Assembly (NCBI GenBank): GCA_016296345.1
Contig: JAEDJL010000003.1
Span: forward strand, 4,555-68,554
Direction of reading: 5' to 3'
DNA: 64,000 bases
Source of the DNA: Bacteroidales bacterium
GTDB taxonomy: Bacteria > Bacteroidota > Bacteroidia > Bacteroidales > P3
A model generated the notes under the pieces. The model made no database searches and had not been told where the DNA came from. It saw only the letters and a program-made list of their open reading frames with translations. Below are positions 44,968 through 64,000 of this stretch, one piece after another. The position numbers and the translations under genes were made by a program. Each line of letters begins with the position of its first letter. Position 1 is the first letter of the stretch.

Positions 44968-44971
44968 TCTT

Positions 44972-46198: not shown

Positions 46199-46258
46199 CT
46201 CTTACAAGATTTTATCGTTCTATAAATCAATTACTTAAATTCAATCTTCGCAACACTA

Positions 46259-46345
46259 AGACAAAACGCAGTTTTGGTAGAATGAAACACCGTTTCATTC
46301 TGCTAAAACGCCGTTTTATTCTGCTGAAACGAAGAGTTGTTTTGC
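46259..46345. repeat. Four-unit, partly degenerate copy of the composite repeat
   Basis: Core centres at 46269, 46290, 46311 and 46332 (21-nt spacing). Confidence 0.8.
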
Positions 46346-46365
46346 TCAAAGAAAACAATGTGTTG

Positions 46366-46797: not shown

Positions 46798-46862
46798 CTA
46801 AAAAGGGCGTTACATTCGTATTATAACGCCCGTGTTCTTTAATCTGTTTTAATGTACAATCG

Positions 46863-47516: not shown

Positions 47517-47517
47517 G

Positions 47518-49419: not shown

Positions 49420-49459
49420 ATCCTCCGATTTTGACCACAAAACTACAAAAAAAACAGCT

Positions 49460-49482
49460 ATCTCGGCGTTTTATTTTGCCAT
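49460..49482. repeat. Single unit of the AAAACGSCGTTT repeat family
   Basis: ctatctcggcgttttattttgcc lies in the divergent lysC/ftsX promoter region. Confidence 0.5.
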
Positions 49483-49522
49483 AAAGTGCTTTTTTTGTAC
49501 CTTTGCCCGATATTTTTTTGAT

Positions 49523-50401: not shown

Positions 50402-50414
50402 AAAAATAATCGAA

Positions 50415-50666
50415 ATGGAAAAAACAAACAAACCTCAGGAAGACACAAAAAGAGATTTCGTCTTCGGAAAATGGAATTACATCATAATGGGCATAGGCTT
50501 GGTCATCTTGGCAATAGGATACATATTGTTGAGCGGCGGAGGCAGCAACAACCCCGACCAATTCAGCGAAGCTTTGTTCAACAGCCGCCGAATGTTGTGG
50601 GCTCCTGTCTTTATAGTAGGAGGATTAGTTGTAGAAGTTTATGCAATCATGAAAAAAGCAAAGTAA
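50415..50666 (+). CDS. Small two-TM membrane protein (DUF3098-like)
   Basis: 83 aa. [22 protein letters not shown] and a second TM helix. As far as I recall, the ftsX-small TM gene-uppP-truB order is a conserved Bacteroidota arrangement. Confidence 0.65.
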
Positions 50667-50670
50667 CACA

Positions 50671-51465
50671 ATGGATACAATACAAGCAATCATCATTTCG
50701 ATAGTCGAAGGACTGACAGAATTTCTGCCGGTCTCCTCAACAGGACACATGATTATCACTCAGGGAATTTTGGGCGTCAAAAGCGATGAGTTTGTCAAGC
50801 TCTTCACGGTCTGCATTCAGTTTGGAGCAATTCTTTCCGTCCTTGTGATGTATTGGAAGCGTTTCTTCCAGACTTGGGAATTCTATTGGAAACTCTTGGT
50901 GGCTTTTCTGCCTGCCGCAATCATCGGTTTTTTGGCAGGAGACTTGATTGACAGCTTCTTGGAGAACGTATGGGTGGTATCCATCATGCTTGTAATCGGA
51001 GGAGTGTTCATGTTGTTTGTCGATAAGTGGTTCAACAATCCTGCAAAAGACCAGACTATCACCTACAAAAAGAGCTTTATGATAGGTTTGGCTCAATGTG
51101 TTGCAATGATTCCGGGAGTAAGCCGCTCGATGGCAACAATCGTCGGAGGTATGACCCAAAAGCTCTCACGCAAAACAGCCGCCGAGTTCTCGTTCTTCCT
51201 TGCAGTGCCAACCATGGCAGCCGCTTCGGGCTACAAACTGCTCAAAGCCTTTACTTCCGAAAGCGGAATGCAACTTTTGAGCGACAATTTGACAACGCTT
51301 TTGATAGGAAATCTTGTTGCGTTTGTTGTTGCCATTTTGGCAATTAAGTTTTTTATCAACTTTCTTACAAAGTATGGTTTTAAGGCATTCGGATATTACA
51401 GAATTGTTGTAGGCTTGCTGATAATCATACTGATGTTTTGCGGAATTCCATTGGAGGTTGCGTAG
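50671..51465 (+). CDS. uppP: Undecaprenyl-diphosphate phosphatase
   Basis: 264 aa. [14 protein letters not shown] and PG.SRS are BacA/UppP signatures. Confidence 0.95.
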
Positions 51466-52169
51466 TGAGAATAGACCTTGAACAAGGAGGATACCTGCTG
51501 TTGAACAAACCATACGAGTGGAGTTCGTTTCAAGCCACCAAAAAGGTACAGTTTATCCTCAAGAAGCACTTCAATACCAAGAAGATAAAAATAGGACACG
51601 CAGGAACGCTTGACCCTTTGGCAACAGGGCTGCTGATTTTGTGCGTAGGCAGATATACCAAACGCATAGAGGAGTTTCAAGCCAAGGAGAAAGAATACAC
51701 CGGAGTGTTCACTCTCGGAGGCACGACGGCAAGTTACGACAAAGAAAAGCCGATTGACGCAACCTATCCCACCGAACACATCACCAAAGAAAGCATTTTG
51801 CAAGCAGCAGAGAGCTTTCTCGGCGAGCAGATGCAAACTCCGCCAATCTTTTCGGCAATAAAAGTGGGTGGAGTAAGAGCATACAGCAAAGCAAGAGACG
51901 GAAAGGAAATAGAGATAAAGCAACGCAAGATAAGCATATCCGAGTTTGAAATAACCGATGTGCAGATGCCCGAAGTGGCATTTCGTATCAAATGTTCAAA
52001 AGGAACATACATTCGCTCTATAGCAAGAGACTTTGGCGAAAGACTGCAATCGGGAGCATATCTCTCGTCGCTTTGCAGAACCAAAATCGGCGAACACTCC
52101 ATAGATGAAGCTCTCTCGATAGACCAAATAACAGAACTCTACCCTCCGCAATCACCTTTGCAGAGCTAA
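51465..52169 (+). CDS. truB: tRNA pseudouridine-55 synthase
   Basis: LLLNKP..WSS, the catalytic HAGTLDPLATG.L, and PP.FSA.K..G.RAY. The start is uncertain: GTG 51465 overlaps the uppP stop, or TTG 51438 as in the ORF track. Confidence 0.85.
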   Translation: MRIDLEQGGYLLLNKPYEWSSFQATKKVQFILKKHFNTKKIKIGHAGTLDPLATGLLILCVGRYTKRIEEFQAKEKEYTGVFTLGGTTASYDKEKPIDATYPTEHITKESILQAAESFLGEQMQTPPIFSAIKVGGVRAYSKARDGKEIEIKQRKISISEFEITDVQMPEVAFRIKCSKGTYIRSIARDFGERLQSGAYLSSLCRTKIGEHSIDEALSIDQITELYPPQSPLQS

Positions 52170-52252
52170 ACTCCGCAATCAAGCCGAAAAAAAAGACAAG
52201 CTGGACGCTACATATCAAATTCGGCAACTTAAACAACTCGAAACACACGACA

Positions 52253-53710
52253 ATGAGGAGCATTGAAAAAAATCAAATACTGACAGGATTGAAGGTAATC
52301 GGGCTTCTGTTGATGATAGAAGCGGGATTTATGTTTGTTTCTCTCATTGCAGCACTTTGGTATGGGCAGGGCGATGCTCAAAGCATCTTTTTGTCGGTAC
52401 TGATAACCCTTTCGACAGGAGCATTGCTTCGCTTTGCAATACGCCCGCAGAAGATTGACATCGACCGACGCCTCGGCATTTTGATAGTTGCCTCAATCTG
52501 GTTGATAATGACCCTTTTCGGCACACTGCCCTACCTGATTGGCGGATACTCAAAGGACTTTACCACCGCAGCTCTTGAAACCATGTCGGGATTTACCACA
52601 ACCGGAGCGAGCAACCTTGACGACATAGAAGCCCTTCCGAAAGGCATACTGCTGTGGAGAAGTCTCACCCACTGGATTGGAGGAGTGGGAATTGTGGTAA
52701 TAGTCATTTCGTTCATTCCTTCGATTGGAGGCGGAGCTATGGCACTGTTTTCTGCCGAGAGTGCAGGACCGAGCAAAACAAAAATCTCGCCTCACATAGG
52801 AACAACAGGCAAAATAATCTGCGGAGTCTATTTTGTGCTGACCGCAATCTGCTGCATAGTATATATTTTGTGCGGAATGGACTTTTTTGACGCCATTAAC
52901 CATGCTTTTTCTACCCTTGCCTCGGGCGGATATTCCACAAAAAACTCCTCTGCCGCCGCATTCTCGCCACTTTTGCAGTATATGATGATACTTTTCATGA
53001 TTCCTGCCGGAACGAACTTCATCTTGATATACTATTGTATCAAAGGACAGTTCTCTCACCTGAGAAAGAGCGAAGAATTTAAGGTATATCTGCTGACGAT
53101 ACTCATTGCTGCCTTGATAATATTTGCATGGATTTTGCCACAAAGCCCGAGCGTGGAATATGCTTTCAGAAGTGCTTTGTTCCATACGGTAAGTTTCATA
53201 TCCTCGACAGGATTTGTGTTGGACGATTACTCACTCTGGCCGCTGCCTGCGGTACTTATTTTGGTCTTTCTTATGTTCTGTGGCTCTATGAGCGGCTCTA
53301 CGTCGGGAGGACTTAAATTGGTGAGAATGATATTGCTGTTCAAAAATGCAAGAAGGATAATCAAGCGTGGTGTTCACTCTTCTGCATATCTGCCACTGAA
53401 AATGGACGGCAAGATTGTGCAGGACAATGTGATGAACAACGTAATGGTCATCTTCCTTATGTTCATTATCACCCTCATTGTAACCATGTTTGCACTCGTT
53501 TTGAGCGGTTTTGGCATGGAAGAGGCGTTCAGCTCCGCCATAACCTGCGTTTCCAACATAGGACCAACCCTCGGCGAATACGGAGGCTTCGGTTCGTTTG
53601 CCAATGCACCTGTTGCATCAAAATGGATTTTGTTTGTGTCAATGTATTTGGGAAGATTGGAAATTGCAACCGTACTCGTACTCTTCTCTCCTTCGTTTTG
53701 GAGAAAATAA
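52253..53710 (+). CDS. trkH: TrkH/KtrB-family potassium uptake permease
   Basis: 485 aa polytopic protein. Repeated selectivity-filter-like motifs (SGFTTTGAS, LASGGYST, ISSTGF, SNIGPTLG). Confidence 0.9.
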   Translation: MRSIEKNQILTGLKVIGLLLMIEAGFMFVSLIAALWYGQGDAQSIFLSVLITLSTGALLRFAIRPQKIDIDRRLGILIVASIWLIMTLFGTLPYLIGGYSKDFTTAALETMSGFTTTGASNLDDIEALPKGILLWRSLTHWIGGVGIVVIVISFIPSIGGGAMALFSAESAGPSKTKISPHIGTTGKIICGVYFVLTAICCIVYILCGMDFFDAINHAFSTLASGGYSTKNSSAAAFSPLLQYMMILFMIPAGTNFILIYYCIKGQFSHLRKSEEFKVYLLTILIAALIIFAWILPQSPSVEYAFRSALFHTVSFISSTGFVLDDYSLWPLPAVLILVFLMFCGSMSGSTSGGLKLVRMILLFKNARRIIKRGVHSSAYLPLKMDGKIVQDNVMNNVMVIFLMFIITLIVTMFALVLSGFGMEEAFSSAITCVSNIGPTLGEYGGFGSFANAPVASKWILFVSMYLGRLEIATVLVLFSPSFWRK

Positions 53711-53743
53711 ATCACCACAGCAAGACCCTGAACAACAAAAAAA

Positions 53744-53772
53744 GCTCTCGTCCATGGAGAAAAGACGAGAGC
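53744..53772 (+). terminator. Hairpin downstream of trkH
   Basis: GCTCTCGTC (53744-53752) pairs with GACGAGAGC (53764-53772). The following T run is weak. Confidence 0.45.
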
Positions 53773-53994
53773 AAAAGGTTTAATTTAGTTTTATAGCAAC
53801 ATCGTAGTGTGCAAATCAATCTACAGACCGAAAGAACTCCCGGCTCTTTCTATATCTACCTTCGATTGCAAAGGTATCACCTTTTGGCAAACAAGATGTT
53901 GCAATGCTTCAAAACAAAATGTCAAATCTTCAAAAACATTATAAGTGTTTATAAGTTAGCAAGCTATATTCCGAACTTTTTGTAAATTTGCAAA

Positions 53995-55122
53995 ATGATA
54001 CAAACAGATTTTTACGTTTTGACACTTTGTTTCCTTTCCGGAACTACGGCATGTTTGATGTTGCTATGCCATTTCATGCTCAAAAGAAAAGGATACAAGT
54101 ATCGGTTTCAAAAGATACTCTCCGTGGTATTGTGTTGCCACGCTTTGGCATTTTTCAACAACTATTTTGTAATGTTGTTCGGCAAATCAGAAAATGCAGA
54201 CTTTATAAACACATTATTTCTCACCTACGACTTCTGCGTAAGCAGTCTGTGGATAGTTTTTATCATCGATTTGATCTCTCCAAAACTCTACAAGCTCAAA
54301 CACCTTCTCACCATACCCGGCACATTTGTGCTTTCAATCATAATATATGCCATAACAGGCAGCGACTACATTTATTTCTTCGACTTGTCTCTCACCTGCC
54401 TCTTAGTAATCGTGTTCTATATCATCTTGGAAATAAGAGTGAAGCGATACACATCAACGCTGAAACAAAACATCTCCGACCTTCAATACTTCGACCTGCA
54501 ATGGGTTTGTGTGGTATTGAGGGTTCTGCTTGTCATGGCAAGCGTATGGATTGCCGAAAGCATAGTTCAAAAATCGTGGTTCTCGACCGAACACAACTCA
54601 AACAACCTGATAATCGATATTCTCTGGTGTCTGATTGCCGGAATTGTCGCCCTGTATATCACAAAGAGTGCAATGAACCAACAAATCTACACCATAAACA
54701 GCGAAAGCAAAGACACAAATAAAGCAAACGACAACCCTTCGCAAGAAAAAGCATATTACGCAAAGGCAATCAAACAAAACATCGACGAGATTATCCTAAG
54801 CAAACAATACTACCTGAACAAAGACCTCTCACTCAACTCACTTGCCTCACTGCTCGGCACAAACAGACAATACCTGTCGAGCTATATCAAGAACATCAAG
54901 CATTCCACGTTTTACGACTATGTGAATGAGTTTCGTCTTTCGTCAGTTCTCGAAAAACTGAACGCAACCGACAACTTGAAACAAGTCGATTGGGAAGAGA
55001 TTATCGGCTCTTGCGGCTTCAACTCCTACTCCACATTTTTGAGAGTATTCAAAAAACGCTTCAAGATGTTGCCTTCAAAATACGTCAAAGAGCTGCAAAA
55101 GAGCAAATCTCCCGACAAATAA
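53995..55122 (+). CDS. Membrane-anchored AraC-family transcriptional regulator
   Basis: 375 aa. About six N-terminal hydrophobic helices, then an AraC HTH pair (LSLNSLASLLGTNRQYLSSYIK......F.DYVN.FRL ... SCGFNSYSTFLRVFKK.F...PS.Y). TAAATTTG lies at 53983-53990, 4 nt before the ATG. Confidence 0.8.
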   Translation: MIQTDFYVLTLCFLSGTTACLMLLCHFMLKRKGYKYRFQKILSVVLCCHALAFFNNYFVMLFGKSENADFINTLFLTYDFCVSSLWIVFIIDLISPKLYKLKHLLTIPGTFVLSIIIYAITGSDYIYFFDLSLTCLLVIVFYIILEIRVKRYTSTLKQNISDLQYFDLQWVCVVLRVLLVMASVWIAESIVQKSWFSTEHNSNNLIIDILWCLIAGIVALYITKSAMNQQIYTINSESKDTNKANDNPSQEKAYYAKAIKQNIDEIILSKQYYLNKDLSLNSLASLLGTNRQYLSSYIKNIKHSTFYDYVNEFRLSSVLEKLNATDNLKQVDWEEIIGSCGFNSYSTFLRVFKKRFKMLPSKYVKELQKSKSPDK

Positions 55123-55188
55123 CCACCCAAGTTACATTCCTCTACCCTTTCATGACGATATAATGACGTGATTTGCAATTACGCTTTG

Positions 55189-55372
55189 TATCTTTTTACG
55201 CTTTTGCCCCTGCAGGGCGTTGCTAATCCTCCATTTTCTTCGGGAAACGTATTGGCATTATCTCTCATACCATATTTTCGGGCGGTATTGGCATTGTTTT
55301 ATTTCTATACATCTTCGGGCTGAAAGTCCGAAAAGCACACAGCTCGGGGCAGAGCGAAAGCGTCGCCCCGAG
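55189..55372 (+). repeat. Copy A of a ~200-nt structured repeat element (direct repeat with copy B at 61714..61954)
   Basis: Shares tatctttttacgcttttgcccctgcagggcg (31 nt) and cgggctgaaagtccgaaaagca.a.cagctcggggcagagcg with copy B. Contains the palindrome GCCCTGCAGGGC and two hairpins capped by GAAA loops (tcgggc-tgaaa-gtccga; ctcggggc..gagc-GAAA-gcgtc-gccccgag). Confidence 0.8.
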
Positions 55373-55491
55373 TTAATAATACCTTACAATAATCGCCATG
55401 TAGGGTCAAAAGCGTTCTTATACTACCACATATAAGAGGCAGTTTTGCGTAAATCACCAAAAAAAAATTGCACGATTAAAGCGAAATTTTA

Positions 55492-55499
55492 TATCTTTG
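55492..55499 (+). promoter_or_regulatory. -7 box (TATCTTTG), candidate promoter of the two-gene cassette, implying a ~385-nt leader
   Basis: ttatatctttgcaagc. No other TAnnTTTG box was seen between here and the ATG at 55892. Confidence 0.4.
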
Positions 55500-55776
55500 C
55501 AAGCTGAAAACCAACAAAAAGAAAGGAGACAAAAGAAACAGAAAGTAAAAGACATTAGAATTAGTACATTTTATTAGACATATAAAAGCGTTTTTGCTTA
55601 TACTCGTAGATGTGAAACTTGGAACATTTCATAAAATCAACTGGTAGTTAAGCCAAGAACGCTCGCGATTATTATCGTGGGCTTTTCTTGTTCAGTTGAT
55701 TAGGTAGTTCCAAGACCTCACATTACAATAAGAAATCAAGTCCCACGACTTTTTTATGTCCGTACGTCAAGAAAAA

Positions 55777-55801
55777 GCAAAGCAAAGCAAAGCAAAGCAA
55801 A
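55777..55801. repeat. (GCAAA)5 pentanucleotide microsatellite followed by degenerate GTAAA/CAAA units
   Basis: gcaaagcaaagcaaagcaaagcaaa counted directly, about 90 nt upstream of the ATG at 55892. Confidence 0.9.
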
Positions 55802-55891
55802 GTAAACAAACAAATCAAAGAAAAAAATCGCCTTGGGGACTTGGGCGGAGTAAAAAAAACAGATTTTAGAAACAATTAAAAATTTATCGAA

Positions 55892-56857
55892 ATGAAAAGG
55901 ACATTTTTATTGATTTGCACCATACTATGTGCAAACGTGCTTATGGCACAAGAACAGTTAGCAGTATTGAGACATAACGACTCTACAAGCGTCTTTTATG
56001 GGCAATCTGCATTCGTACAAGCCTACACAGCCGCAACACACGGCGACATCATCACCCTATCAGACGGAATATTCACCGCACCAGGCAGTGTACGAAAAGG
56101 AATCACCGTCAGAGGAAACGGAGCCGTTGCAGATACTGCACGAAGAAGCACAGGAACTTATTTTATGGAAAATTTTCAAGTTGCTCAATTGGGAGATTCA
56201 TTACAATTCTCAGCAGAAGGAATTTATTTTAATTATTTTAATTCACACCAATCCTACGACATAAAACTTACAAGGTGTTATATGAAGTATTTTTCTCAAA
56301 ATGGTGGTGTGCAAGCAACTAATTGTATAATAAAAGGTACTGCAGACGGTACTTCATCTCAAAATAATACATATACTAACTGTGTTATAAATAATAATGG
56401 TACTAATTATTATATTCCTAATTTCGTAATTTGTAATCATTGTATAATATCAGGAAATGATTCTTATAGTTATTCTTCTTATCAATTTAACAATTGTGTG
56501 GTAAGAAAAAGCGGTGGTAATGATACTATCCTTAATGGTGCTGTAAATTATAGCGTTCTTATTGGTTTTACTGGTACTAATAGTCCTACTTCTTCTGGGA
56601 ATGTTGCGATGAGTCTTAGTGATGTGTTTGAAAATTGGAATGGAAATAGTCTTCCTACTGATTTAGAGACATACGTTTTGAAGTCTTCTGTTTCTGATAG
56701 CATTCAAAGTTTGGACGGAAGTGAGGTTGGAATTTTTGGGGGCTTTATGCCTTTTGATTGGAGACCGTCTTATAGTATTATTAAGAGGTTTAATGTTGCT
56801 AATCGTACTACTGCGGACGGAAAGTTGAGTGTGGACATTGAGGTAATAAGTGAATAA
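55892..56857 (+). CDS. Secreted hypothetical protein, probably right-handed parallel beta-helix-like
   Basis: 321 aa. Signal peptide MKRTFLLICTILCANVLMAQ, then GDIITLSDGIF...GITVRGNG. A periodic (T/N)NC(I/V)I motif recurs (TNCIIKG, TNCVINN, CNHCIISG, NNCVVRK). No T9SS CTD recognised. Confidence 0.6.
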   Translation: MKRTFLLICTILCANVLMAQEQLAVLRHNDSTSVFYGQSAFVQAYTAATHGDIITLSDGIFTAPGSVRKGITVRGNGAVADTARRSTGTYFMENFQVAQLGDSLQFSAEGIYFNYFNSHQSYDIKLTRCYMKYFSQNGGVQATNCIIKGTADGTSSQNNTYTNCVINNNGTNYYIPNFVICNHCIISGNDSYSYSSYQFNNCVVRKSGGNDTILNGAVNYSVLIGFTGTNSPTSSGNVAMSLSDVFENWNGNSLPTDLETYVLKSSVSDSIQSLDGSEVGIFGGFMPFDWRPSYSIIKRFNVANRTTADGKLSVDIEVISE

Positions 56858-56868
56858 ATCTTACAGCA

Positions 56869-59800
56869 ATGAGACGTTGCTTTTTAATTTTACTTTGTCT
56901 GCTTTTGTCTGTGGGTTTGCAGGCTCAAAACAGCTTTCTTTTGCAATATTGGTTAGACAGAGACTACTCCGATAGGCAAAGCATAGCATTTGAGGGCAAT
57001 GGCTTGCAGGCAGAGTTGGATTTTGCAGACTTAAACGAAGGACTTCACTCCTTAGACTTGCAGGTGCAAGACACAGGCGGTTGGTCTTCGCCCGCTTCTT
57101 TCACTTTTTTGAAGCTTAGCACAGCTTTGCAAGATGGAGAAGTGGCGAATGCTACCTATAAGTATTGGGTAGATAGAGACAGCACCGATTTTGTTTCGGG
57201 TTCTCTAAGCAATGGAACAATTTTGCTCGACCTTGCCGATTTGGAAACAGGTTTGCATAGACTTAATGTGTTGGTTGAGCAAGCGGGAAGCCCTTCTTAC
57301 GTTAATTGTTTCTCTTTTTTGAAAATCAACGACACGCTTTCTTCCTCCGGAGCGGGAGATTTGACTTATAAGTGTTGGTTTGATAATAATTTCGATTCTT
57401 TACAAAGTGGAAGTGTGGGAAATGGTGTTGTGCTGTTGGAGACTGCTTGGCTCGAAACAGGCATTCATACGGTGAATGTGATTGTTGAGCGTGGGGGAGT
57501 TGCTTCTTACATCAATAGTTATTCGTTTTTGAAACTCGATGAGTTGTTTTCGCAAGACGATATTACTTCGGCTACTTTTAAATATTGGTTTGACGGAGAT
57601 ATTGCTTCGGCTCAGAGTGGCAATGTTGCTGATGGGAATGTGCTTTTGGAGACTGCCGGGCTTGAAGCGGGCATTCATACGGTGAATGTGATTATTGAGT
57701 GTGGCGGAGTTACTTCTTACGTTAATAATTATTCGTTTTTGAAACTCAATGAGTTGTTTTCGCAAGACGGTATTGCTTTGGCAACTTATAAGTATTGGTT
57801 TGATGGTGATTTTGCTTCGGCTCAAAGTGGCAATGTTGCTGATGGGAATGTGCTTTTGGAGACTGCTGGGCTTGAAAGCGGGTTGCACACTATTGATGTG
57901 ATTGTGGAAGTAAACGGTGTTCACTCTTTTGTTTCTTCTTATATGTTCTATAAGTTGGAAGATGTGCTTGCGGAAGGTGCAAACGGTGGGGCGTTGTCTT
58001 ATAGTTATTGGTTCGATGAGGATTTTGCCGATAGAAGAACAGGTACTTTAAGCAATGGAAATCTTATTCTTGAAACCGATTCTTTGCCTGCGGGTATTCA
58101 TTATGTCAATATTCAGGTGAACAACTCTACTCCTTCGGCTTTGTCAAGGCATATCTTCTTTAAGGAGCCTTTGGGTGGTTTGGGTGTTTGCAAGTATGAG
58201 TATTGGTTGAATGATGACTTTTCTTCTCGCACTGCGGTAACGGTTAATCCTCCTTCTGCGGACTATGAACTTGTTTCTCTTATGCCTATGGATACGGTGG
58301 CGTTCAATCCGATGTCGATGTACTTCGAACCGAACGAGGGAAGCCCTATTGTGTATGCTCAAAACAAGATTCACTTCCGTTTTTGGAACAATTTGGATTT
58401 CTTTTCCGACACTGTGAAGACGTATGTGGATATGATGGTTTCGCGTTTTGTGATTGCTGATACTATTGAGCGGAACACTACCGAACTAATCGCTACTCCT
58501 TCGGGCGAAGATATTCATTGGTTTATGTTACATTCAGAGATTGGGGATTCTATTGCGTTTAAGGCAGACAAAGGTTGTGCTTTGCAGTTGTTTAATCCTG
58601 CGGGCGAGAGGGTTATGTCGTCTTCCGGTATTGATGTTTTGGATTGGAATAGTCTTACTTCTATGGAAAGCGGTTGGTATCACTTGGCTGTGTCTAATGG
58701 TTCGACAAATAATCCTAATTTAAACGTGTCTTATTTCCGTTTAGGCAAGTTTGATGTTGTGGATTATGACGTTGATAGAGTCGGAAACGGTGGTTACACA
58801 AATATAAACTATGTTGGAAATGGTTTTGATAGCCTTAACACTGTGATGTACATAAATGCGTTGAACGATACTATCACTCACGTTCAAATAGGACACGAAA
58901 CAAATAATCATACGAGTGTTTTGTTTAATTTCAGCGGAGCAGACACAGGAGTTTATCGTGCTGTATTTGTGTTTAACGACTATGTACTGACAATAGACAG
59001 TGCTTTAACAATCGAAACTGCAAGAGATATTATCTTGACTTCAAATGTAAGTTTCCCGGAAAGCTTTTTGAGAGGTTCAAAAGTAAAATACACTGTCACT
59101 ATAACTAATACAGGAAATATGACAGCAAGTAATGTTCCTTTCTATACTTATATAGGGACGCCAGGTCGTATAGATACTATAATGATGAGTGGAAATGTTT
59201 CCTTTATTCGTTATGGTGGATTGGATTTACCAAAAATTGATGAGGATGTTTATTATGGAGATTTGCCTGAAAACGAAGGAAATGAAATAAGAAATTGGGC
59301 AAATAATTGGGATGAAGAACATGGAGATTTAGCACATTTCTTCCTTTCTGAAACTAACGATGAAGAAACCGGAGAAGAAGTAACAGTAAGAAGTAATTAT
59401 CATTATATTACTCTTGCTCCTTACGAAACAAGAACTCTTGAATTGGAAATAGAATCAAATGAAGAAGTAGAAGTGTGGATTACTATCCCTGATACTATTC
59501 CTCCTATTTATATTCCAAATCCAAATGAGCCAGAACCTGACCCAAGTAATCCTAATCTTTCATGGAGAGACCAATTTTGTTGTGTAAAAGATAAAGTTGA
59601 TTGTATTATAGATGCTGTAAGTACTGGTTTTGATTTAGCAAGTACACTCAGTGGAGTATTTGCTCCTGGCACACCTGTTGCAACAATAACTTCTGTTGCA
59701 AATTGTATTTTTTCTATGTTCAATTTTGCGTATTCAAATATTGGGGCAAGATTATGTCCAAATCAAGTAAATGATTTGATAACGGAAGGACTTAATACAG

Positions 59801-61635
59801 TAAAAGCTCCTTTATCTCTTGCGAGTATGGGAGTAGGTTGCTTTTCTGCTATGAAGAATGCTTTGGGTATTAATTTTATTGCAGGTGGTGGAACAAGAGC
59901 CTTAGAACAAATAACCTGTTTATTAAGTGGAGCAAATATTGCAACCACTTCATTTTCTTGTACAGAATCTTTTGGAAGAAAGAATTCTGATTGTTTACCA
60001 CAACCACGTAAAGGTGGAAAGTCTAACCCTGTTTATTCTTTTGACCCTAATGAAATCTACGGTTACATTGCTGAATCGGGCAGTTTGGCTGTGGGTAGTG
60101 AGGTTGAAGAATTATTCTATACTATTCAGTTTGAAAACGACACTGTTTTTGCTTCTTCAAATGCAAGTAATGTTTACTTGACTGATAGTTTGGATAGCGA
60201 TTTGTTTGATTTGTCTTCTTTCAAATCCAGAAAAGTAATAATTGGTAGCAAGGAAATAACTTTGAATGGAGAGAAAGAATTTACAAGAACAATGGATATG
60301 CGTCCTGACATTAATTGTTTGGCTCAAATTAGTTTGAGTTTTGATTCTGTAAATGGCGTTGCTTCTTGGGCATTCTCTACTCTCGATCCTATTACCTTGG
60401 AGGAAATAAACATTCCAAGCAGAGGTTTCTTGCCGGTTAATTACTATGGTGAGGGAATAGGTGAAGTGATGTTTACTATCAATAGGAAGACTAATCTTGC
60501 GGATAGTACTTTGATTCCAAATTATGCTACTATTATTTTTGACAATAACGAGGGTATAAATACTTCTCTTTGGCAAAATGTTGTTGATGTTACTCCTCCA
60601 CAAAGTAGTGTAAGCAATATTGCAATTACTGATACTATGGCAACACTAACTGTAACTGCAAGCGATAATATTTCGGGAGTGTGGAAGTATAATGTGTTTG
60701 CTCAATATGGTACTACTGCCGAATGGGAAAGTATTGCAGAAAACATTCCTATTGACAGCATGGTTTCAGTCAGGGTTTATGATGGATTGAATACAGGTTT
60801 CGTTTCTATCGCTATTGACTCTGCAGGAAACATGGAAAACAAGCCAATGTTGAGAGATAACGACATATTTGCTTTGCATGTTTATACTGAAACAAATCCT
60901 GAGCGAGGTTATGTTAGCGGTTTGGGTAGTTATGATAGTTTGAGTGTTGTTGAAATCACAGCAGTACCGAATAGTTGTTATAGTTTTGTAAGTTGGAATG
61001 ACGGAAATACCAACAATCCGAGAACATTTACCCTTACAAAAGATACTTGCCTTACTGCTATATTTGAAAGCATCGACTTCTCAAACAGCATTACTGCTGC
61101 AATTTGCGAGGGAAGCACCTACACCGAGAACGGCTTCAATGTAAGCGAGGCAGGAGTTTACACTCAGAACTTGCAAACCGCAAATGGTTGTGATAGCACG
61201 GTAACTTTGACCTTGACCGTAAACCCTGTTTATAATATCACTATTGATGCGACAATCAATCAAGGTGATGTATATCAGGAAAACGGATTTGACGTGAGCG
61301 AGGCAGGTGTTTACACTCAGAACTTGCAAAGCGTAAATGGTTGCGACAGTGTGATAGTGTTGAACTTGACCGTGAACTCATCGCTTGGCGATGTGGTTGC
61401 AAACTCGATTGAAGTCGCTTTGTATCCTAACCCTGCAGAGGACTATACCGTTTTGAAAGTGCAAGGCTTGAAGGAGCAAACCAAAGTAGCTTTGTTTGAC
61501 ATAAGAGGTCGCAAACTAAGAGAGTTTGACCTTGCTGTAGGAACGGAGAGCATAAGGCTTGACCTTCGAGACCTGCCAAGCGGAGTTTATACTCTCATGA
61601 TTGGAAACACCACAAAGAAACTCATTGTCGAATAA
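56869..61635 (+). CDS. 1588-aa multidomain T9SS cargo (adhesin-like): 6-7 tandem ~68-aa repeats, PPC-like and CARDB-like modules, Cys-rich hydrophobic module, Ig-like modules, two GCDS modules, type A C-terminal sorting domain
   Basis: Signal peptide MRRCFLILLCLLLSVGLQAQ. Repeats of Y.YW.D.D......G...NG...L....L..G.H...V.V....... S...F.K. C-terminus LYPNPAEDYTVLKVQGL......LFDIRGRKL......ESIRLDLRDLPSGVYTLMIGNTTKKLIVE is typical of a type A CTD. Confidence 0.85.
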   Translation: MRRCFLILLCLLLSVGLQAQNSFLLQYWLDRDYSDRQSIAFEGNGLQAELDFADLNEGLHSLDLQVQDTGGWSSPASFTFLKLSTALQDGEVANATYKYWVDRDSTDFVSGSLSNGTILLDLADLETGLHRLNVLVEQAGSPSYVNCFSFLKINDTLSSSGAGDLTYKCWFDNNFDSLQSGSVGNGVVLLETAWLETGIHTVNVIVERGGVASYINSYSFLKLDELFSQDDITSATFKYWFDGDIASAQSGNVADGNVLLETAGLEAGIHTVNVIIECGGVTSYVNNYSFLKLNELFSQDGIALATYKYWFDGDFASAQSGNVADGNVLLETAGLESGLHTIDVIVEVNGVHSFVSSYMFYKLEDVLAEGANGGALSYSYWFDEDFADRRTGTLSNGNLILETDSLPAGIHYVNIQVNNSTPSALSRHIFFKEPLGGLGVCKYEYWLNDDFSSRTAVTVNPPSADYELVSLMPMDTVAFNPMSMYFEPNEGSPIVYAQNKIHFRFWNNLDFFSDTVKTYVDMMVSRFVIADTIERNTTELIATPSGEDIHWFMLHSEIGDSIAFKADKGCALQLFNPAGERVMSSSGIDVLDWNSLTSMESGWYHLAVSNGSTNNPNLNVSYFRLGKFDVVDYDVDRVGNGGYTNINYVGNGFDSLNTVMYINALNDTITHVQIGHETNNHTSVLFNFSGADTGVYRAVFVFNDYVLTIDSALTIETARDIILTSNVSFPESFLRGSKVKYTVTITNTGNMTASNVPFYTYIGTPGRIDTIMMSGNVSFIRYGGLDLPKIDEDVYYGDLPENEGNEIRNWANNWDEEHGDLAHFFLSETNDEETGEEVTVRSNYHYITLAPYETRTLELEIESNEEVEVWITIPDTIPPIYIPNPNEPEPDPSNPNLSWRDQFCCVKDKVDCIIDAVSTGFDLASTLSGVFAPGTPVATITSVANCIFSMFNFAYSNIGARLCPNQVNDLITEGLNTVKAPLSLASMGVGCFSAMKNALGINFIAGGGTRALEQITCLLSGANIATTSFSCTESFGRKNSDCLPQPRKGGKSNPVYSFDPNEIYGYIAESGSLAVGSEVEELFYTIQFENDTVFASSNASNVYLTDSLDSDLFDLSSFKSRKVIIGSKEITLNGEKEFTRTMDMRPDINCLAQISLSFDSVNGVASWAFSTLDPITLEEINIPSRGFLPVNYYGEGIGEVMFTINRKTNLADSTLIPNYATIIFDNNEGINTSLWQNVVDVTPPQSSVSNIAITDTMATLTVTASDNISGVWKYNVFAQYGTTAEWESIAENIPIDSMVSVRVYDGLNTGFVSIAIDSAGNMENKPMLRDNDIFALHVYTETNPERGYVSGLGSYDSLSVVEITAVPNSCYSFVSWNDGNTNNPRTFTLTKDTCLTAIFESIDFSNSITAAICEGSTYTENGFNVSEAGVYTQNLQTANGCDSTVTLTLTVNPVYNITIDATINQGDVYQENGFDVSEAGVYTQNLQSVNGCDSVIVLNLTVNSSLGDVVANSIEVALYPNPAEDYTVLKVQGLKEQTKVALFDIRGRKLREFDLAVGTESIRLDLRDLPSGVYTLMIGNTTKKLIVE
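56938..58190 (+). repeat. Tandem ~204-nt (68-codon) repeats inside the large CDS; the three central copies (about 57355-57975) are near-identical at the DNA level
   Basis: Direct comparison shows long identical strings, for example ggcattcatacggtgaatgtgatt, ttattcgtttttgaaactc, gagttgttttcgcaagacg and agtggcaatgttgctgatgggaatgtgcttttggagactgc, recurring at a ~204-nt period. Confidence 0.85.
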
Positions 61636-61713
61636 CGACAAAAACTGATTAAACATTTTCTTTTGGGGAGTTGTAAGGCGTGATGCCTTGCAGCTCTTTT
61701 TTGTTTGAAACAC

Positions 61714-61954
61714 TATCTTTTTACGCTTTTGCCCCTGCAGGGCGAAAGTTCCGTTGGTGGGCTTATCCCCTACGCGTTGCTTCGCTTTGCGTAGGGCTGT
61801 TCGCAGGCTGCCCCTGCAGGGCGTTGGGGCGTTGGTCGTTGTTCAGCTCTTATGCTTTTCCAACGTATTGATGTCGTTCTTTTCTTCATTATACCCTCGG
61901 GCTGAAAGTCCGAAAAGCAATCAGCTCGGGGCAGAGCGTCAGCATCGCAACGAG
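61714..61954 (+). repeat. Copy B of the ~200-nt repeat element (expanded and partly degenerate)
   Basis: Same 5' 31-mer and same cgggctgaaagtccgaaaagca...cagctcggggcagagcg block as copy A. The gcccctgcagggcg palindrome is duplicated (61731 and 61810) around an insert holding the hairpin ccctacgc...gcgtaggg. The 3' hairpin is decayed. Confidence 0.8.
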
Positions 61955-62183
61955 ATACAAAGCCTTTGACAGGGTGCAGCCGAATATCACCTTTGTTCTC
62001 TAATTCATGAGTATATTTGGATAGAAGTAAAAAGAAATAATTCAAGAAATTATTGACAAAATGGAAAAATCATAGAAAATAATCGTTAATTTTGCAATGA
62101 CAAATGGAAGTTATGAACGTTTCTAAGCAGGCTGCAGACAGATGTTTTGGAACACCACCCAATGACGTTATAGTACAAACATT

Positions 62184-63563
62184 ATGAGTAAGATTACAAC
62201 AAAAGAATGTCAGAATGTTGAACACAAACGTAGCTGGCAAGATGAATATCTAAAATGGATTTGTGGATTTGCGAATGCCCAAGGTGCTGTCATGTATTTT
62301 GGGGTAGATGACAACCTTGAAGTATATGGGCTAAAGAACACCAAGAAACTAATGGAAGACATCCCCAACAAAATAGTCAATAGTATGGGATTAGTGGTTG
62401 ATGTAAACCTCTATGAGCAAGATGGATTAGAATATATAGAGGTAACAATATCTCCAAGTAATGTTCCTATCAGTTACAAGGGTAAGTATTATTATCGTTC
62501 CGGCAGTACCATGCAGGAATTGAATGGTTCTGCTTTACAGCAATTCATCTTGAAGAAGATGGGACGTTCATGGGACGACATCACAAATGACCGTGCTACG
62601 ATGGAGGATATAGACCGAAAAGCTGTAGAGTACTTCCTGCGTAAAGGAATAGAAGCTCAACGTATTCCGGAAAGCGAGCTTAATTCATCAACAGAAGAGG
62701 TGCTGACAAACCTAAGACTTGTTGATGATAATGGCTTTCTCAAAAATGCAGCTATCTTACTTTTTGGCAAGAATCCGCTTAAATTTTTCCCAAGCGTCAG
62801 GTTTAAGATTGGTCGCTTTGGAAAAGATGAAGCCGACCTGATGTTCCAAGATGTCATAGAAGGTAATATCATACAAATGGCAGATCGTGTTATGGAAGCT
62901 CTCCAAGCCAAATATCTTGTGTCGCCGGTACGTTTTGAGGGTATGCAACGTTATGAGACATTGGAAATCCCCAAGGAGGCTTTACGAGAAATACTATACA
63001 ATGCCATTGCTCATAAAGACTATACAGGACCGGATATACAAATACATGTCTATAACGACTTAATAGAGATTTGGAACGAAGGTACACTACCTGAGGGGTA
63101 TGATGAAAATGTACTATACAATAAGCATTCTTCCAAACCTCGCAATAGAAATATTGCTGACACAATGTTTAAGGCAGGTTTTATTGATACATGGGGACGT
63201 GGTTACAAAAAGATACGTGACGGATTTGAAATGGCAGGTATGCCTATGCCAAAAGTACAAAACTTCTGTGGTGGTGTGCAGGTTACGATAGAACGAACAC
63301 GATTTATGCAAATGTCAAGTGCAACTAATAATGGCGGTAATTTTGGCGGTAGTGGCGGCAGTTTGGCGGTAGTACAACTATCAGAAAGACAAAGGAGAAT
63401 ATGCAATACGATAAAAGACAATCCCAAAGTAACTGTTGAACAGATGGCATCAGCATTGTCAATAGCAAAGAGAACGTTAGAACGTGAACTATCAGCGTTA
63501 CAGAAAATGGGAGTATTGCTTCGAGAAGGTAATACCAGTGCAGGGCATTGGGTAATCATTTAG
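62184..63563 (+). CDS. AlbA_2 (Schlafen-like) domain / HATPase_c_4 / C-terminal winged-HTH protein (often annotated as RecG-like putative DNA-binding protein)
   Basis: 459 aa. N-terminal E.Q.VE.K.S......KWICGFANAQGAVMYFGVDD...V.G (AlbA_2 pattern), central LREILYNAIAHKDY......I.V......IEIWN.G.LP....PRNRNIADTMFKAGFIDTWGRGYKKI, and a C-terminal HTH (TVEQMASALSIAKRTLERELSALQKMGVL). Confidence 0.75.
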   Translation: MSKITTKECQNVEHKRSWQDEYLKWICGFANAQGAVMYFGVDDNLEVYGLKNTKKLMEDIPNKIVNSMGLVVDVNLYEQDGLEYIEVTISPSNVPISYKGKYYYRSGSTMQELNGSALQQFILKKMGRSWDDITNDRATMEDIDRKAVEYFLRKGIEAQRIPESELNSSTEEVLTNLRLVDDNGFLKNAAILLFGKNPLKFFPSVRFKIGRFGKDEADLMFQDVIEGNIIQMADRVMEALQAKYLVSPVRFEGMQRYETLEIPKEALREILYNAIAHKDYTGPDIQIHVYNDLIEIWNEGTLPEGYDENVLYNKHSSKPRNRNIADTMFKAGFIDTWGRGYKKIRDGFEMAGMPMPKVQNFCGGVQVTIERTRFMQMSSATNNGGNFGGSGGSLAVVQLSERQRRICNTIKDNPKVTVEQMASALSIAKRTLERELSALQKMGVLLREGNTSAGHWVII

Positions 63564-63864
63564 AAATAAAACAAACAACTTTGTTATTACTCACATTGTA
63601 TCGTGGGAAGAAGAAAGCGAAGAATATATCGCCAAATTCACCGAAGAGTAATCTTTTTATAATTTTGTATTCCGCAACACTGATTAGATTTCCGCAAGCA
63701 AATTATTTAACATTTGGCGACCTTTTAAGCCGAAATGCCGGCGATTTTTCGGGGTCGGTCGATGTTCGGGTCGATTTTTTCGAGTATTTGAGCGTTAAGC
63801 AATTATCTGTATTTCAAGTGTTTGCAAAATATGTGTTGATTTGGGTGAAATAAGTGAGGCTTTT

Positions 63865-63961
63865 TTTGAAAAAAGACGAAGTCTTTTGCTCACTAAGTCT
63901 TCGTCTTTTGAGTCGTAAGTCTTCGTCTTTTTTCAAAAAGACTTCATGTTAGTGAGCAAAA
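63865..63961. repeat. Interleaved inverted and direct repeats near the right edge
   Basis: IR1 is tttgaaaaaagacgaag (63865-63881) with cttcgtcttttttcaaa (63921-63937). IR2 is ttttgctcactaa (63884-63896) with ttagtgagcaaaa (63949-63961). The direct repeat aagtcttcgtctttt occurs at about 63896 and 63917. Confidence 0.75.
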
Positions 63962-64000
63962 ACCCTTATGTTGTTGCAGCAAGACTAAACCTTGCTCCGA

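What the first reader, a model, noticed from the sequence alone, without database searches (positions are those of the whole stretch)
53995..61954. Two-gene surface-protein cassette bracketed by direct copies of a ~200-nt structured element and preceded by a membrane-bound AraC regulator
Copy A (55189-55372) and copy B (61714-61954) share two blocks in the same orientation: an identical 31-mer (tatctttttacgcttttgcccctgcagggcg) and a block of about 45 nt (cgggctgaaagtccgaaaagca..cagctcggggcagagcg). Together they bracket about 6.3 kb holding only two genes, the beta-helix-like gene 55892..56857 and the 1588-aa T9SS cargo gene.

Copy A folds into two hairpins with GAAA loops, which hints that the element is transcribed as a structured RNA. 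Copy B is expanded by an internal duplication of the GCCCTGCAGGGC palindrome, and its 3' hairpin is decayed. Immediately upstream is a regulator with about six TM helices fused to an AraC HTH. Immediately downstream is an AlbA_2/Schlafen-like gene with visibly different, AT-richer codon usage.

Direct repeats flanking a cassette allow excision or replacement by homologous recombination. I saw no integrase, transposase or target-site duplication, so mobility is unproven.
Basis: partly seen in the sequence, partly recalled or inferred. Interest (0 to 1): 0.65.

Follow-up and report, generated by a model that had tools for sequence, protein, structure and literature searches.

The report
REP-like repeats beside variable surface genes
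The two "direct repeats" are ordinary members of a large family of hairpin-rich intergenic repeats found across gut Bacteroidales and linked to a small tyrosine (IS200-like) transposase; the genes between them do differ between strains, but the swap points lie inside the genes' own conserved ends, not in the repeats.

Summary
The repeats are real: the 31-mer and the 22-mer are exact at the stated coordinates. They are not cassette-specific.

- **What each copy is.** Each is a tail-to-tail pair of ~110-nt three-hairpin units. Block 2, with the "GAAA" hairpins, is a reverse-oriented unit.
- **Family.** At least 153 units were found in about 40 Prevotella, Prevotellaceae, Paludibacteraceae and other Bacteroidales assemblies. 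They lie between unrelated housekeeping genes. Their stems are kept by compensatory changes. No Rfam family matches.
- **Transposase link.** In four independent lineages, inverted units tightly flank a 148-aa Y1 (HUH) transposase gene, the RAYT/REP arrangement. The protein carries the "subclass 1.2" signature, a subclass published as lacking REPs. One subfamily also sits inside a 325-bp MITE with 8-bp target duplications.
- **Strain comparison.** In another strain (97.6% identical), doublet A and the leader are kept. A different T9SS cargo gene replaces the two genes. Homology resumes inside the sorting-domain-coding 3' end. Doublet B and the AlbA_2 gene are missing.
- **Related species.** AraC is directly followed by rplS.

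The locus is therefore a variable cargo slot, and the repeats are bystanders. The most interesting by-product is the link between this repeat family and the Y1 transposase.

The parts
53995..55122 (+). Membrane-anchored AraC-family regulator (375 aa). It is a conserved core gene, not part of the variable segment.
   Evidence: It has HTH_18/HTH_AraC at residues 283-365 and about 7 hydrophobic segments. It lies in the same synteny (FtsX-DUF3098-BacA-TruB-TrkH-AraC) in the conspecific strain and in the sister species, where rplS follows directly.
55189..55308 (+). Doublet A, forward unit, truncated. The head ACGCTTTTGCCCCTGCAGGGCG lies at 55198-55219, and hairpins 2 and 3 are deleted or decayed.
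   Evidence: The covariance model R1 scores 31 bits, E 6e-9, with only the head aligned. Alignment with copy B and L013 shows the 79 nt between the two 15-mers are missing.
55293..55415 (-). Doublet A, reverse unit, complete. Hairpin 3 lies at 55317-55329, hairpin 2 at 55343-55372, and a degenerate head at 55394-55415.
   Evidence: R1 scores 60.9 bits, E 1e-19, and this unit was not in the seed alignment. In strain L118 the head is intact, giving a perfect 22-nt inverted repeat with the forward head.
55421..55891 (+). Conserved promoter and leader region of the cargo operon. A Bacteroidetes-type -7 box TAtcTTTG lies at 55492-55499, a terminator-like hairpin at 55661-55682, and a (GCAAA)n microsatellite at about 55770-55800. 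This region holds the left boundary of the strain-variable segment.
   Evidence: The region up to 55770 lies inside the 97.6%-identical block shared with L118, although the leader itself scores only about 82% over 358 nt. Positions 55817-55861 are also kept in L118. A 78%-identical copy lies next to a doublet in L013. Depth is 4-5 times the baseline. Hairpin. The -7 box comes from sequence inspection (inference).
55892..56857 (+). Gene for a 321-aa secreted protein of unknown family, with a signal peptide. It is part of the variable segment.
   Evidence: ORF. No Pfam or NCBIfam hit. GC3 is 0.25. It is absent from L118, and depth is 0 in X4 and X5.
56869..61635 (+). Gene for a 1588-aa T9SS cargo protein. 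Its 5' 4.2 kb is strain-specific. Its 3' end from 61091 (51-aa repeats plus the C-terminal sorting domain) is shared with the alternative cargo gene.
   Evidence: It has Por_Secre_tail, DUF7619 and Flg_new_2. L118:16798-17438 equals window 61091-61731 at 93%.
61665..61699 (+). Intrinsic-terminator-like hairpin with a T-run, belonging to the cargo gene. It lies upstream of doublet B.
   Evidence: Terminator scan. It is conserved in L118.
61714..61846 (+). Doublet B, forward unit, canonical and complete. The head lies at 61723-61744, hairpin 2 at 61768-61796, and hairpin 3 at 61810-61822.
   Evidence: R1 scores 71.7 bits; this unit is a seed member. It has the same subtype as L013 and L086.
61875..62037 (-). 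Doublet B, reverse unit, decayed. Hairpin 3 lies at 61899-61911, hairpin 2 at about 61925-61954 is broken, and the head is lost.
   Evidence: R1 scores 21.3 bits, E 2e-5. It is 81% identical to the reverse unit of doublet A.
62184..63563 (+). AlbA_2/Schlafen-like, HATPase_c_4 and HTH gene. Together with the interior of doublet B (61732-63644) it is an indel relative to strain L118.
   Evidence: Pfam. It is absent from L118, where a 45-nt mini-palindrome with the same ACGCTTTTG...CAAAAGCGT foot occupies the site.

Best explanation
**The repeats.** Each "copy" is a tail-to-tail doublet (-> <-) of a ~110-nt REP-like unit.
- The unit is built from three GC-rich hairpins: the head GCTTTTGCCCCTGCAGGGCG, hairpin 2 such as CCCAGGGC..GCCCTGGG, and hairpin 3 such as GGCCTTTCAGGCC.
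- Units of this family are scattered through intergenic DNA of many gut and rumen Bacteroidales. They usually occur as inverted doublets.
- Inverted units flank a small single-domain Y1 HUH transposase gene of the IS200 superfamily (subclass 1.2 signature). This is how REP sequences flank RAYT genes.

**Most likely mechanism (inferred).** The Y1 enzyme recognises the hairpins in single-stranded DNA and copies or moves doublets without target duplication. Some doublets are further spread as passengers inside TIR/TSD MITEs. At this locus the doublets are passive residents of two intergenic spaces. Doublet A lies between the AraC stop codon and the cargo promoter. Doublet B lies behind the cargo terminator. 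At most they act as insulators, extra terminators or recombination-prone DNA.

**The two-gene "cassette".** It is one allele of a strain-variable T9SS-cargo slot. Alleles share a conserved promoter/leader and a conserved 3' end coding for repeats and the sorting domain. Both shared ends are multi-copy sequences. Replacement most likely occurs by homologous recombination through those shared gene ends. Doublet B plus the AlbA_2 gene is a separate insertion/deletion at a REP site.

**Shown versus inferred.** Shown: family membership, stem covariation, intergenic dispersal, the Y1 flanking arrangement, the strain differences and their boundaries. Inferred: that Y1 moves the units, and that recombination uses the leader and the sorting-domain-coding end.
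For: **Anatomy.** The covariance model finds exactly four units in 64 kb: 61723-61846 (+), 55293-55415 (-), 55198-55308 (+) and 61875-62037 (-).

**Family.**
Most hits came from Bacteroidales MAGs, with several per genome.
- 153 units with E <= 1e-3 were found in 80 stretches.
- Of 62 adjacent pairs, 48 are head-to-head, 7 tail-to-tail and 7 tandem.

**Structure.** 96% of cells are paired. Ten of 17 pairs show double changes. None of 500 shuffles reached the observed score. Slid controls gave 25-60% pairing.

**Context.**
- 52 of 61 copies are free of long ORFs, and divergent flanks are rare.
- 107 neighbouring proteins fall in 116 Pfam families with no cargo enrichment.
- No Rfam match.

**Y1 link.**
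- L074 ORF 667-1110 matches Y1_Tnp at E 3e-13. It lies between units at 549-660 (-) and 1115-1226 (+).
- Homologues in L197, L194/L195 and L196 are flanked the same way, with E 1e-6 to 1e-18.
- The motifs DH[IV]H, WQ and Y---Q--HH match subclass 1.2 (PMC6006769).

**MITE passenger.** A 325-bp element has at least 5 copies at 95-98% identity, with TIRs and 8-bp TSDs in 4 of 4 copies.

**Locus.**
- L118 against the window gives boundaries at 55770/55861, 61091, 61731 and 63645.
- L118 has only doublet A and a mini-palindrome at site B.
- The sister species has no repeat and no cassette, and no unit there.
- Depth is 0 to low over the cassette in X4 and X5. Depth is 3-8 times baseline over the leader, the sorting-domain-coding end and the doublets.
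- Every Logan contig retrieved through AraC variants of this species (about ten samples) breaks at the head of site A.
Against: - No Y1 gene was found in the window or in the conspecific 21-kb locus. The rest of this genome could not be searched, so a cognate transposase in this organism is unproven.
- The window's doublets are tail-to-tail, the minority arrangement (7 of 62 pairs).
- There is no GTAG or CGTC tag as in classical REPs.
- The Y1 protein is closer to IS200 TnpA than to canonical RAYTs.
- The 8-bp TSDs show that at least one subfamily moves by a DDE-type route instead.
- Only one full-length conspecific comparison spans the whole locus.
- A short contig joining 55381 to 61721 exists in two metagenomes. 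It could still reflect a cassette-less arrangement in some strain.
- The copy number of the family in this particular genome is known only roughly. There are four units in 64 kb and a 3-5-fold depth excess.
Confidence: 0.75

Rival explanations
1. The two same-orientation copies are the functional bracket of a mobile or exchangeable cassette. Homologous recombination between them excises or swaps the 6.3-kb segment.
For: - The 31-nt and 22-nt blocks are perfectly identical.
- The segment between them varies between strains.
- Short contigs in X1 and X4 join 55381 to 61721, skipping 6339 nt, at about single-copy depth.
Against: - The replacement boundaries in L118 lie 350-620 nt inside the repeats, in the leader and in the sorting-domain-coding region.
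- L118 has no doublet B.
- The 55381->61721 joint is not at homologous positions of the two copies.
- That joint also occurs in the source sample X1. There the flanks and the cassette have the same depth (7.3-7.5), so the joint must come from another locus.
- The family lies next to unrelated genes everywhere else.
Confidence: 0.1
2. The units are genes or cis-elements for a structured RNA, such as an sRNA, a 3'-UTR stabiliser, or a terminator/antiterminator. They would be selected at the RNA level.
For: - Stems show strong compensatory covariation.
- The units lie downstream of genes.
- A gut metatranscriptome has family-like contigs at high depth. One of them runs from a cargo stop codon into a head.
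Against: - Units occur in both orientations, mostly as inverted pairs.
- G.U-type and A.C-type departures are balanced once the loop-closing pairs are set aside: 8 against 7.
- Folding z-scores are only about -1.9.
- No Rfam family matches.
- The cargo gene has its own terminator before doublet B.
- The RNA evidence comes from relatives, and DNA carry-over is possible.
Confidence: 0.1
3. The elements are classical MITEs, deletion derivatives of a DDE insertion sequence. Their heads would be the terminal inverted repeats.
For: - The outer heads of tail-to-tail doublets are 22/22 (L118) and 22/24 (L013) inverted repeats.
- One subfamily is bounded by TIRs and 8-bp TSDs.
- A census of Bacteroidota MITEs exists (PMC11602168).
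Against: - No TSD flanks the window, L118 or L013 doublets.
- The TIRs of the TSD-bearing elements lie outside the units and differ between subfamilies: GGGTCTTCCGGAATTTGGAGTGA, GAGGGTGTGTCAAAA and TCCTGTGCGG. The hairpin core stays conserved, which is the opposite of the usual MITE pattern.
- No DDE transposase was seen next to any copy.
Confidence: 0.05

Closest known systems
REP / REPIN elements with RAYT (TnpA_REP) transposases of Proteobacteria (Nunvar 2010; Bertels & Rainey 2011, PMC3116915; Ton-Hoang 2012)
   Same: - They are GC-rich extragenic palindromes kept by compensatory changes.
- They have many copies per genome.
- They occur mostly as inverted doublets.
- A small Y1 HUH transposase gene is flanked by inverted copies.
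- No target duplication is seen at the doublets.
   Different: - The unit is about 110 nt with three hairpins, rather than one 20-40-nt hairpin.
- There is no GTAG or CGTC tag.
- The associated protein carries the subclass 1.2 signature (IS200-like) rather than class 2 TnpA_REP.
- Both head-to-head and tail-to-tail doublets occur.
- Some copies ride inside TSD-forming MITEs.
Subclass 1.2 TnpA_Y1 proteins (Quentin et al. 2018, PMC6006769)
   Same: - The proteins are 148 aa long.
- They have the DH[IV]H, WQ and Y---Q--HH motifs and a conserved C-terminus.
- They occur in Bacteroidetes at low copy number.
   Different: That paper lists the subclass as generally lacking terminal secondary structures, and its REP column reads "no". 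Here 4 of 5 lineages examined are flanked by inverted multi-hairpin units that are also dispersed elsewhere.
BIMEs of E. coli and modular repeats such as pneumococcal BOX, Neisseria Correia and ERIC elements (from my own knowledge)
   Same: - They are modular mosaics of short palindromic units in alternating orientation.
- They sit in intergenic DNA, often after genes.
- They are proposed to affect termination, mRNA stability and recombination.
   Different: There is no sequence similarity. Correia elements have TA duplications and a defined 26-bp TIR. BOX elements have A-B-C modules with no known transposase.
IS200/IS605 insertion sequences
   Same: They use the same transposase superfamily, with hairpin-based recognition and no TSD.
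   Different: In IS200/IS605 the end hairpins lie on the same strand, and the whole element, gene included, is multi-copy. Here the flanks are inverted, the non-coding units vastly outnumber the gene, and the gene sits between housekeeping genes.
Variable T9SS cargo / surface-protein loci with conserved 5' and 3' ends, i.e. allelic replacement by recombination in shared flanks (from my own knowledge)
   Same: - The leader and the C-terminal sorting-domain region are conserved.
- The middle part is strain-specific.
- GC3 is low.
- The shared ends are multi-copy.
   Different: No dedicated recombinase, invertase or silent-cassette array was seen. Only two full alleles were compared.

Membership tests
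REP/REPIN-RAYT system | Short GC-rich extragenic palindromes whose stems are kept by compensatory substitutions | tested here: met
   Across 66 units, 96% of cells are paired and 10 of 17 pairs show double changes. None of 500 shuffles reached the observed score. 52 of 61 copies lie outside long ORFs.
REP/REPIN-RAYT system | Many dispersed copies per genome | tested here: inconclusive
   Lower bounds in other genomes are 23 units in RGIG4240, 17 in RGIG8039 and 17 in the Hadza Prevotella MAG. For the window's own genome there are only 4 units in 64 kb and a 3-5-fold depth excess. The whole genome was not available.
REP/REPIN-RAYT system | Units occur predominantly as inverted doublets (REPINs) | tested here: met
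   55 of 62 adjacent pairs are inverted: 48 head-to-head and 7 tail-to-tail. Both window sites are inverted doublets.
REP/REPIN-RAYT system | A Y1 (HUH) transposase gene flanked by inverted copies of the same repeat | tested here: met
   This holds in L074, L197, L194/L195 and L196. In L198-L200 only one side is flanked. It was not found in the window's own genome fragment.
REP/REPIN-RAYT system | Conserved 5' GTAG (or CGTC) tag next to the hairpin | tested here: not met
   The head is preceded by GCTTTT or ACTTTT. No GTAG or CGTC appears in the alignment.
REP/REPIN-RAYT system | The transposase belongs to the class 2 TnpA_REP (RAYT) clades and is single-copy and vertically inherited | tested here: not met
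   The motifs DH[IV]H, WQ and YI--Q--HH and the 148-aa length fit subclass 1.2 of class 1 (PMC6006769). Copy number and inheritance were not tested. L197 carries two Y1 genes.
MITE (DDE-mobilised) | Terminal inverted repeats | tested here: met
   The outer heads are 22/22 (L118) and 22/24 (L013) inverted repeats. In the window doublet A has 3 mismatches, and in doublet B the right head is lost.
MITE (DDE-mobilised) | Target-site duplication flanking the element | tested here: not met
   No TSD is seen at the window, L118 or L013 doublets. The 8-bp TSDs occur only at a 325-bp composite with other TIRs in a Prevotella MAG.
Integron gene cassette / attC | attC recombination sites at cassette ends together with an integron integrase or a cassette array | tested here: not met
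   The flanking ORFs scanned against Pfam (49250-55122 and 62184-63563) include no integrase, and there is no array. The units occur singly between housekeeping genes. attC structure was not modelled.
Described structured RNA (Rfam 15) | Match to a curated covariance model | tested here: not met
   Only tRNA was found at the gathering threshold in the window and in 10 canonical loci. Nothing better than E 0.4 was found at the elements.

The most novel reading that the evidence does not exclude
The three-hairpin units would be the cognate REPs of subclass-1.2 Y1 transposases, forming a REPIN/RAYT-type partnership across Bacteroidales for a transposase subclass published as having no repeats. 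At this locus the inner inverted pair has the same topology as the Y1 gene's own flanks. That pair is the reverse unit of doublet A (head at 55394-55415) and the forward unit of doublet B (head at 61723-61744). The 6.3-kb cargo operon between them could therefore be a Y1-mobilisable, cargo-carrying REPIN. More loosely, REP doublets could seed accessory-gene slots. The probability given is for the cargo-carrying reading. I rate the Y1-REP partnership itself at about 0.6.
Probability: 0.07. Interest if true: 0.7.

Novelty: new member of a known kind. Interest (0 to 1): 0.4.

Why it matters
**For the finding as posed.** It removes a tempting but wrong reading. Identical repeats on both sides of a variable gene pair do not make a mobile cassette here. 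The repeats are a genome-wide family, and the swap points lie elsewhere.

**Beyond the finding.**
- It defines a widespread, apparently undescribed REP-like family in Prevotella and other gut and rumen Bacteroidales. This family breaks short-read assemblies: every retrieved Logan contig of this locus ends in it.
- It gives a candidate substrate to a Y1 transposase subclass that had none.
- It supplies a covariance model and clear test cases, including a cultured carrier, Xylanibacter rodentium.
- It flags a strain-variable T9SS cargo slot with a conserved leader. That is relevant to surface variation in gut Bacteroidales.

Tried and rejected
- **Rfam.** Searches at gathering and E-value thresholds on the window and on 10 canonical loci found only tRNA.
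- **Long-range antiterminator idea.** I considered pairing between block 1 and block 2. Block 2 proved to be a reverse-oriented unit, so the complementarity is simply head against head.
- **Strand asymmetry of wobble pairs** as a test for RNA. The counts are balanced, so it is uninformative.
- **The contig joint 55381->61721** as an "empty site". I rejected it as evidence because it is also present in the source sample, where flank depth equals cassette depth.
- **The "goes back" joints 61826->55242.** These are aligner ambiguity over the shared 18-mer, not circle junctions.
- **Exact 22-mer of block 2 in the metagenome collection.** It gave 0 hits. The degenerate pattern gave 62 loci, mostly human-gut Prevotella doublets, and none from this species.
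- **Viral contigs.** There were only 2 hits, so no phage link.
- **TSD search** at the window, L118 and L013 doublets. None was found.
- **Hadza-type TIR in the window.** It is absent.
- **Neighbour-gene enrichment.** There is none, apart from 6 DnaJ-domain hits, which I think (not checked) come from a DnaJ-like tandem array in L031.
- **Logan contigs of about ten further samples.** All stop at the head of site A, so they add no allele information.
- **Literature.** No paper in the held library contains the hairpin motifs.
Full report
**1. Observation.**
- The 31-mer TATCTTTTTACGCTTTTGCCCCTGCAGGGCG is exact at 55189-55219 and 61714-61744. The 22-mer CGGGCTGAAAGTCCGAAAAGCA is exact at 55316-55337 and 61898-61919. 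Both lie on the + strand, and no shuffle gave a match.
- Block 2 extends to 78 nt at 81% identity. The sequence between the two blocks does not align.
- Between the copies lie only a 321-aa ORF without family hits and a 1588-aa T9SS cargo ORF.
- Upstream is an AraC-type regulator with about 7 hydrophobic segments. Downstream is an AlbA_2/HATPase_c_4/HTH gene.
- GC3 is low for all three accessory genes (0.25, 0.33, 0.35), against 0.51-0.55 for core genes.

**2. What the repeats are.**
About a third were chance hits inside genes of unrelated phyla. The rest came from about 40 Prevotella, Prevotellaceae, Paludibacteraceae and other Bacteroidales assemblies, often with several copies per contig and in both orientations.
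- The copies share a unit: the head GCTTTTGCCCCTGCAGGGCG, about 22 variable nt, hairpin 2, about 12 nt, then hairpin 3.
- On 66 units, 96% of cells pair and 10 of 17 pairs show changes on both sides. Examples are CCCAGGGC, CTCGGGGC, CTTAGGGC and CCCTACGC, each with the matching partner. None of 500 shuffles reached the observed covariation. Slid controls pair at 25-60%.
- A covariance model (R1) run over the whole window without filters finds four units and nothing else:
  - 61723-61846 (+), 71.7 bits;
  - 55293-55415 (-), 60.9 bits, not in the seed alignment;
  - 55198-55308 (+), 31 bits, head only;
  - 61875-62037 (-), 21 bits, head lost.
Its "GAAA" loops are the complement of the family's TTTC loops. 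Each "copy" is a tail-to-tail doublet.
- Copy B is the canonical form, the same subtype as L013 and L086. Copy A lacks the 79 nt between the two identical 15-mers TGCCCCTGCAGGGCG.
- No Rfam family matches, either in the window or in ten canonical loci.

**3. Distribution and context of the family.**
- R1 finds 153 units in 80 stretches totalling 570 kb. Lower bounds per MAG are 17-23 units.
- Of 62 adjacent pairs, 48 are head-to-head with 9-60-nt spacers, 7 are tail-to-tail and 7 are tandem.
- 52 of 61 copies avoid long ORFs. Flanking genes are mostly tandem or convergent.
- The 107 neighbouring proteins fall into 116 Pfam families, essentially housekeeping, with no T9SS enrichment.
- Departures from Watson-Crick pairing are symmetric between strands. 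The structure is therefore not demonstrably an RNA feature.
- Only two hits occur in viral contigs.
- A degenerate hairpin-3 pattern retrieves 62 further metagenomic loci. Most are human-gut Prevotella head-to-head doublets at many different sites, some with nested insertions.

**4. Link to a transposase.**
- In L074 a 148-aa ORF lies between a reverse and a forward unit, with the heads facing the gene. One head ends 18 nt before the start codon. The other begins just after the stop.
- The ORF is a Y1_Tnp protein (E 3e-13) with an HUH motif and a catalytic tyrosine.
- Homologues were fetched from other genomes. Those from a Bacteroidales MAG (L197), two Prevotella MAGs (L194/L195) and a JGI contig (L196) are flanked in the same way by inverted units, with E 1e-6 to 1e-18. 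A Muribaculaceae homologue is flanked on one side only.
- Control loci without repeats give no hits.
- The proteins share DH[IV]H, WQ, YI--Q--HH and a YDE[RK]Y C-terminus. This is the signature of subclass 1.2 of Quentin et al. 2018. That paper describes the subclass as low-copy, found in Bacteroidetes and Cyanobacteria, and generally lacking terminal secondary structures (PMC6006769).
- A Y1 gene between inverted copies of a dispersed palindromic repeat defines the REP-RAYT arrangement. Head-to-head doublets correspond to REPINs.
- Two classical features are not met. There is no GTAG or CGTC tag, and the protein is not a class 2 TnpA_REP.
- I therefore say the family works like a REP/REPIN-RAYT system. 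I file it as a new member of that kind rather than as a canonical one.
- No Y1 gene lies in the window or in the conspecific locus. The rest of this genome could not be searched.

**5. A second route of spread.**
- In a Hadza Prevotella MAG the doublet is the interior of a 325-bp element. It is present at 95-98% identity in at least five sites.
- That element is bounded by the TIRs GGGTCTTCCGGAATTTGGAGTGA and TCACTCCAAATCACGGATGAACC. Perfect 8-bp target duplications flank it in 4 of 4 sites.
- Other subfamilies carry different outer repeats, while the hairpin core stays conserved.
- I read this as REP doublets riding inside DDE-type MITEs.
- The window, L118 and L013 doublets have no such TIRs and no duplication.

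**6. The locus in other genomes.**
- *Source.* The organism is a pig-gut Bacteroidales, Candidatus Onthomorpha sp..
- *Conspecific MAG contig L118.*
  - It is 97.6% identical to window 43995-55770. That block covers AraC, an intact doublet A with perfect 22-nt inverted heads, and most of the leader, which is itself only about 82% identical.
  - After the leader it carries a single 1828-aa LRR_5/Por_Secre_tail gene in place of the two window genes.
  - Homology resumes at window 61091, inside the 3' coding region. It runs through the terminator to 61731, the first 9 nt of the head.
  - A 45-nt mini-palindrome with the same ACGCTTTTG...CAAAAGCGT foot then replaces window 61732-63644, that is, the interior of doublet B plus AlbA_2.
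  - Homology resumes again at 63645. R1 finds only doublet A in L118.
- *Sister species.* AraC is 84% identical and upstream synteny is intact, but rplS follows AraC after 135 nt. There is no repeat and no cassette.
- *Related pig-gut strains X4 and X5.*
  - The flanks have full depth.
  - Positions 56011-57612 have depth 0, and the rest of the cassette has low depth.
  - The leader, the sorting-domain-coding end and the doublets have 3-8 times the baseline.
- The segment is therefore a variable cargo slot. Its exchange points lie in the shared leader and the shared 3' end. Doublet B plus AlbA_2 is a separate indel.
- A leader-like sequence also lies next to a doublet in another MAG, L013.

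**7. Local function.**
- Doublet A lies between the AraC stop codon (55122) and a Bacteroidetes-type -7 box at 55492-55499 (sequence inspection).
- Doublet B lies after the cargo gene's own terminator at 61665-61699.
- A gut metatranscriptome contains family-like contigs. One runs from a cargo stop codon into a head. This comes from relatives and is weak evidence.
- The doublets may insulate or terminate transcription, but nothing here shows it.

**8. Verdict.**
- The finding itself is ordinary, a pair of dispersed REP-like repeats.
- The by-product is moderately interesting. It is an apparently undescribed Bacteroidales REP family with three-hairpin units, tied to subclass-1.2 Y1 transposases.

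Noticed in passing
window 5770-5860, 8190-8300, 14130-14240, 19010-19100, 22480-22570, 30845-30940, 34106-34200, 39170-39260, 42285-42380, 46260-46350: A second, much more abundant intergenic repeat occurs in this window. It forms short tandem arrays of 3-5 units with a 21-nt period (about AAAACGCCGTTTTATTTCAGC). The CGCCG and CGGCG cores alternate, so neighbouring units can pair. It appears in both orientations in at least ten intergenic regions, and also in L118.
   Followed up: no
window 55421-55891: The long leader upstream of the cargo operon is conserved in the other strain and, at 78%, in another MAG. It is about 4-5 times over-represented in metagenome depth and abundant in one metatranscriptome (55491-55604). 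It holds a terminator-like hairpin at 55661-55682 about 200 nt before the start codon. This could mean an attenuator or a small RNA.
   Followed up: partly
window 55770-55800: A (GCAAA)n microsatellite lies in the leader. Contigs from several metagenomes skip 38-52 nt here, so its length varies between strains or paralogues.
   Followed up: no
window 63645-63998; L118 17493-17846; L013 4414-4718: Another conserved non-coding element ("elem2") lies here. It is 93% identical in the conspecific strain and 80% in another MAG. In L118 and L013 it lies about 20-45 nt after a palindromic element. Depth is 15-17 times the baseline. It contains its own inverted repeats (AAAAAAGACGAAGTCTTTTG...). Its function is unknown.
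   Followed up: partly
L118 17430-17474: The 45-nt mini-palindrome ACGCTTTTGAGGCTGTCTAACAAGTTTAGGCAGCCTCAAAAGCGT occupies site B in the other strain. It shares the 9-nt foot of the doublet heads but has a different interior. It may be a solo or minimal REP, or the footprint of an exchange.
   Followed up: no
L132 vs L171, L161 vs L185, L183 vs L134 (human-gut Prevotella contigs): At the same chromosomal sites, alleles differ. One carries a full head-to-head doublet. The other has a second element, bounded by GAGGGTGTGTCAAAA inverted repeats, inserted right after hairpin 3. This looks like nested mobile elements that target the units.
   Followed up: partly
L197 935-1408: A second, 51%-identical Y1 transposase gene lies 1.5 kb from the first in the same contig. 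No R1 units flank it, so it may have a different cognate repeat.
   Followed up: no
window 57364-57993 and 61126-61377; L118 14558-16927: The cargo genes contain coding tandem repeats. The window gene has three 210-nt units and two 153-nt units. The alternative allele in L118 has about 16 copies of the 153-nt unit, so repeat number varies widely between alleles.
   Followed up: no
L032 2851-4371; L032 1374-2711; L036 4589-5755: Accessory-looking genes lie between repeat doublets in Prevotella MAGs. One is a Ro60/TROVE-vWA protein and two are AAA_14/DUF4143 ATPases. This hints that the doublets often border accessory genes.
   Followed up: no
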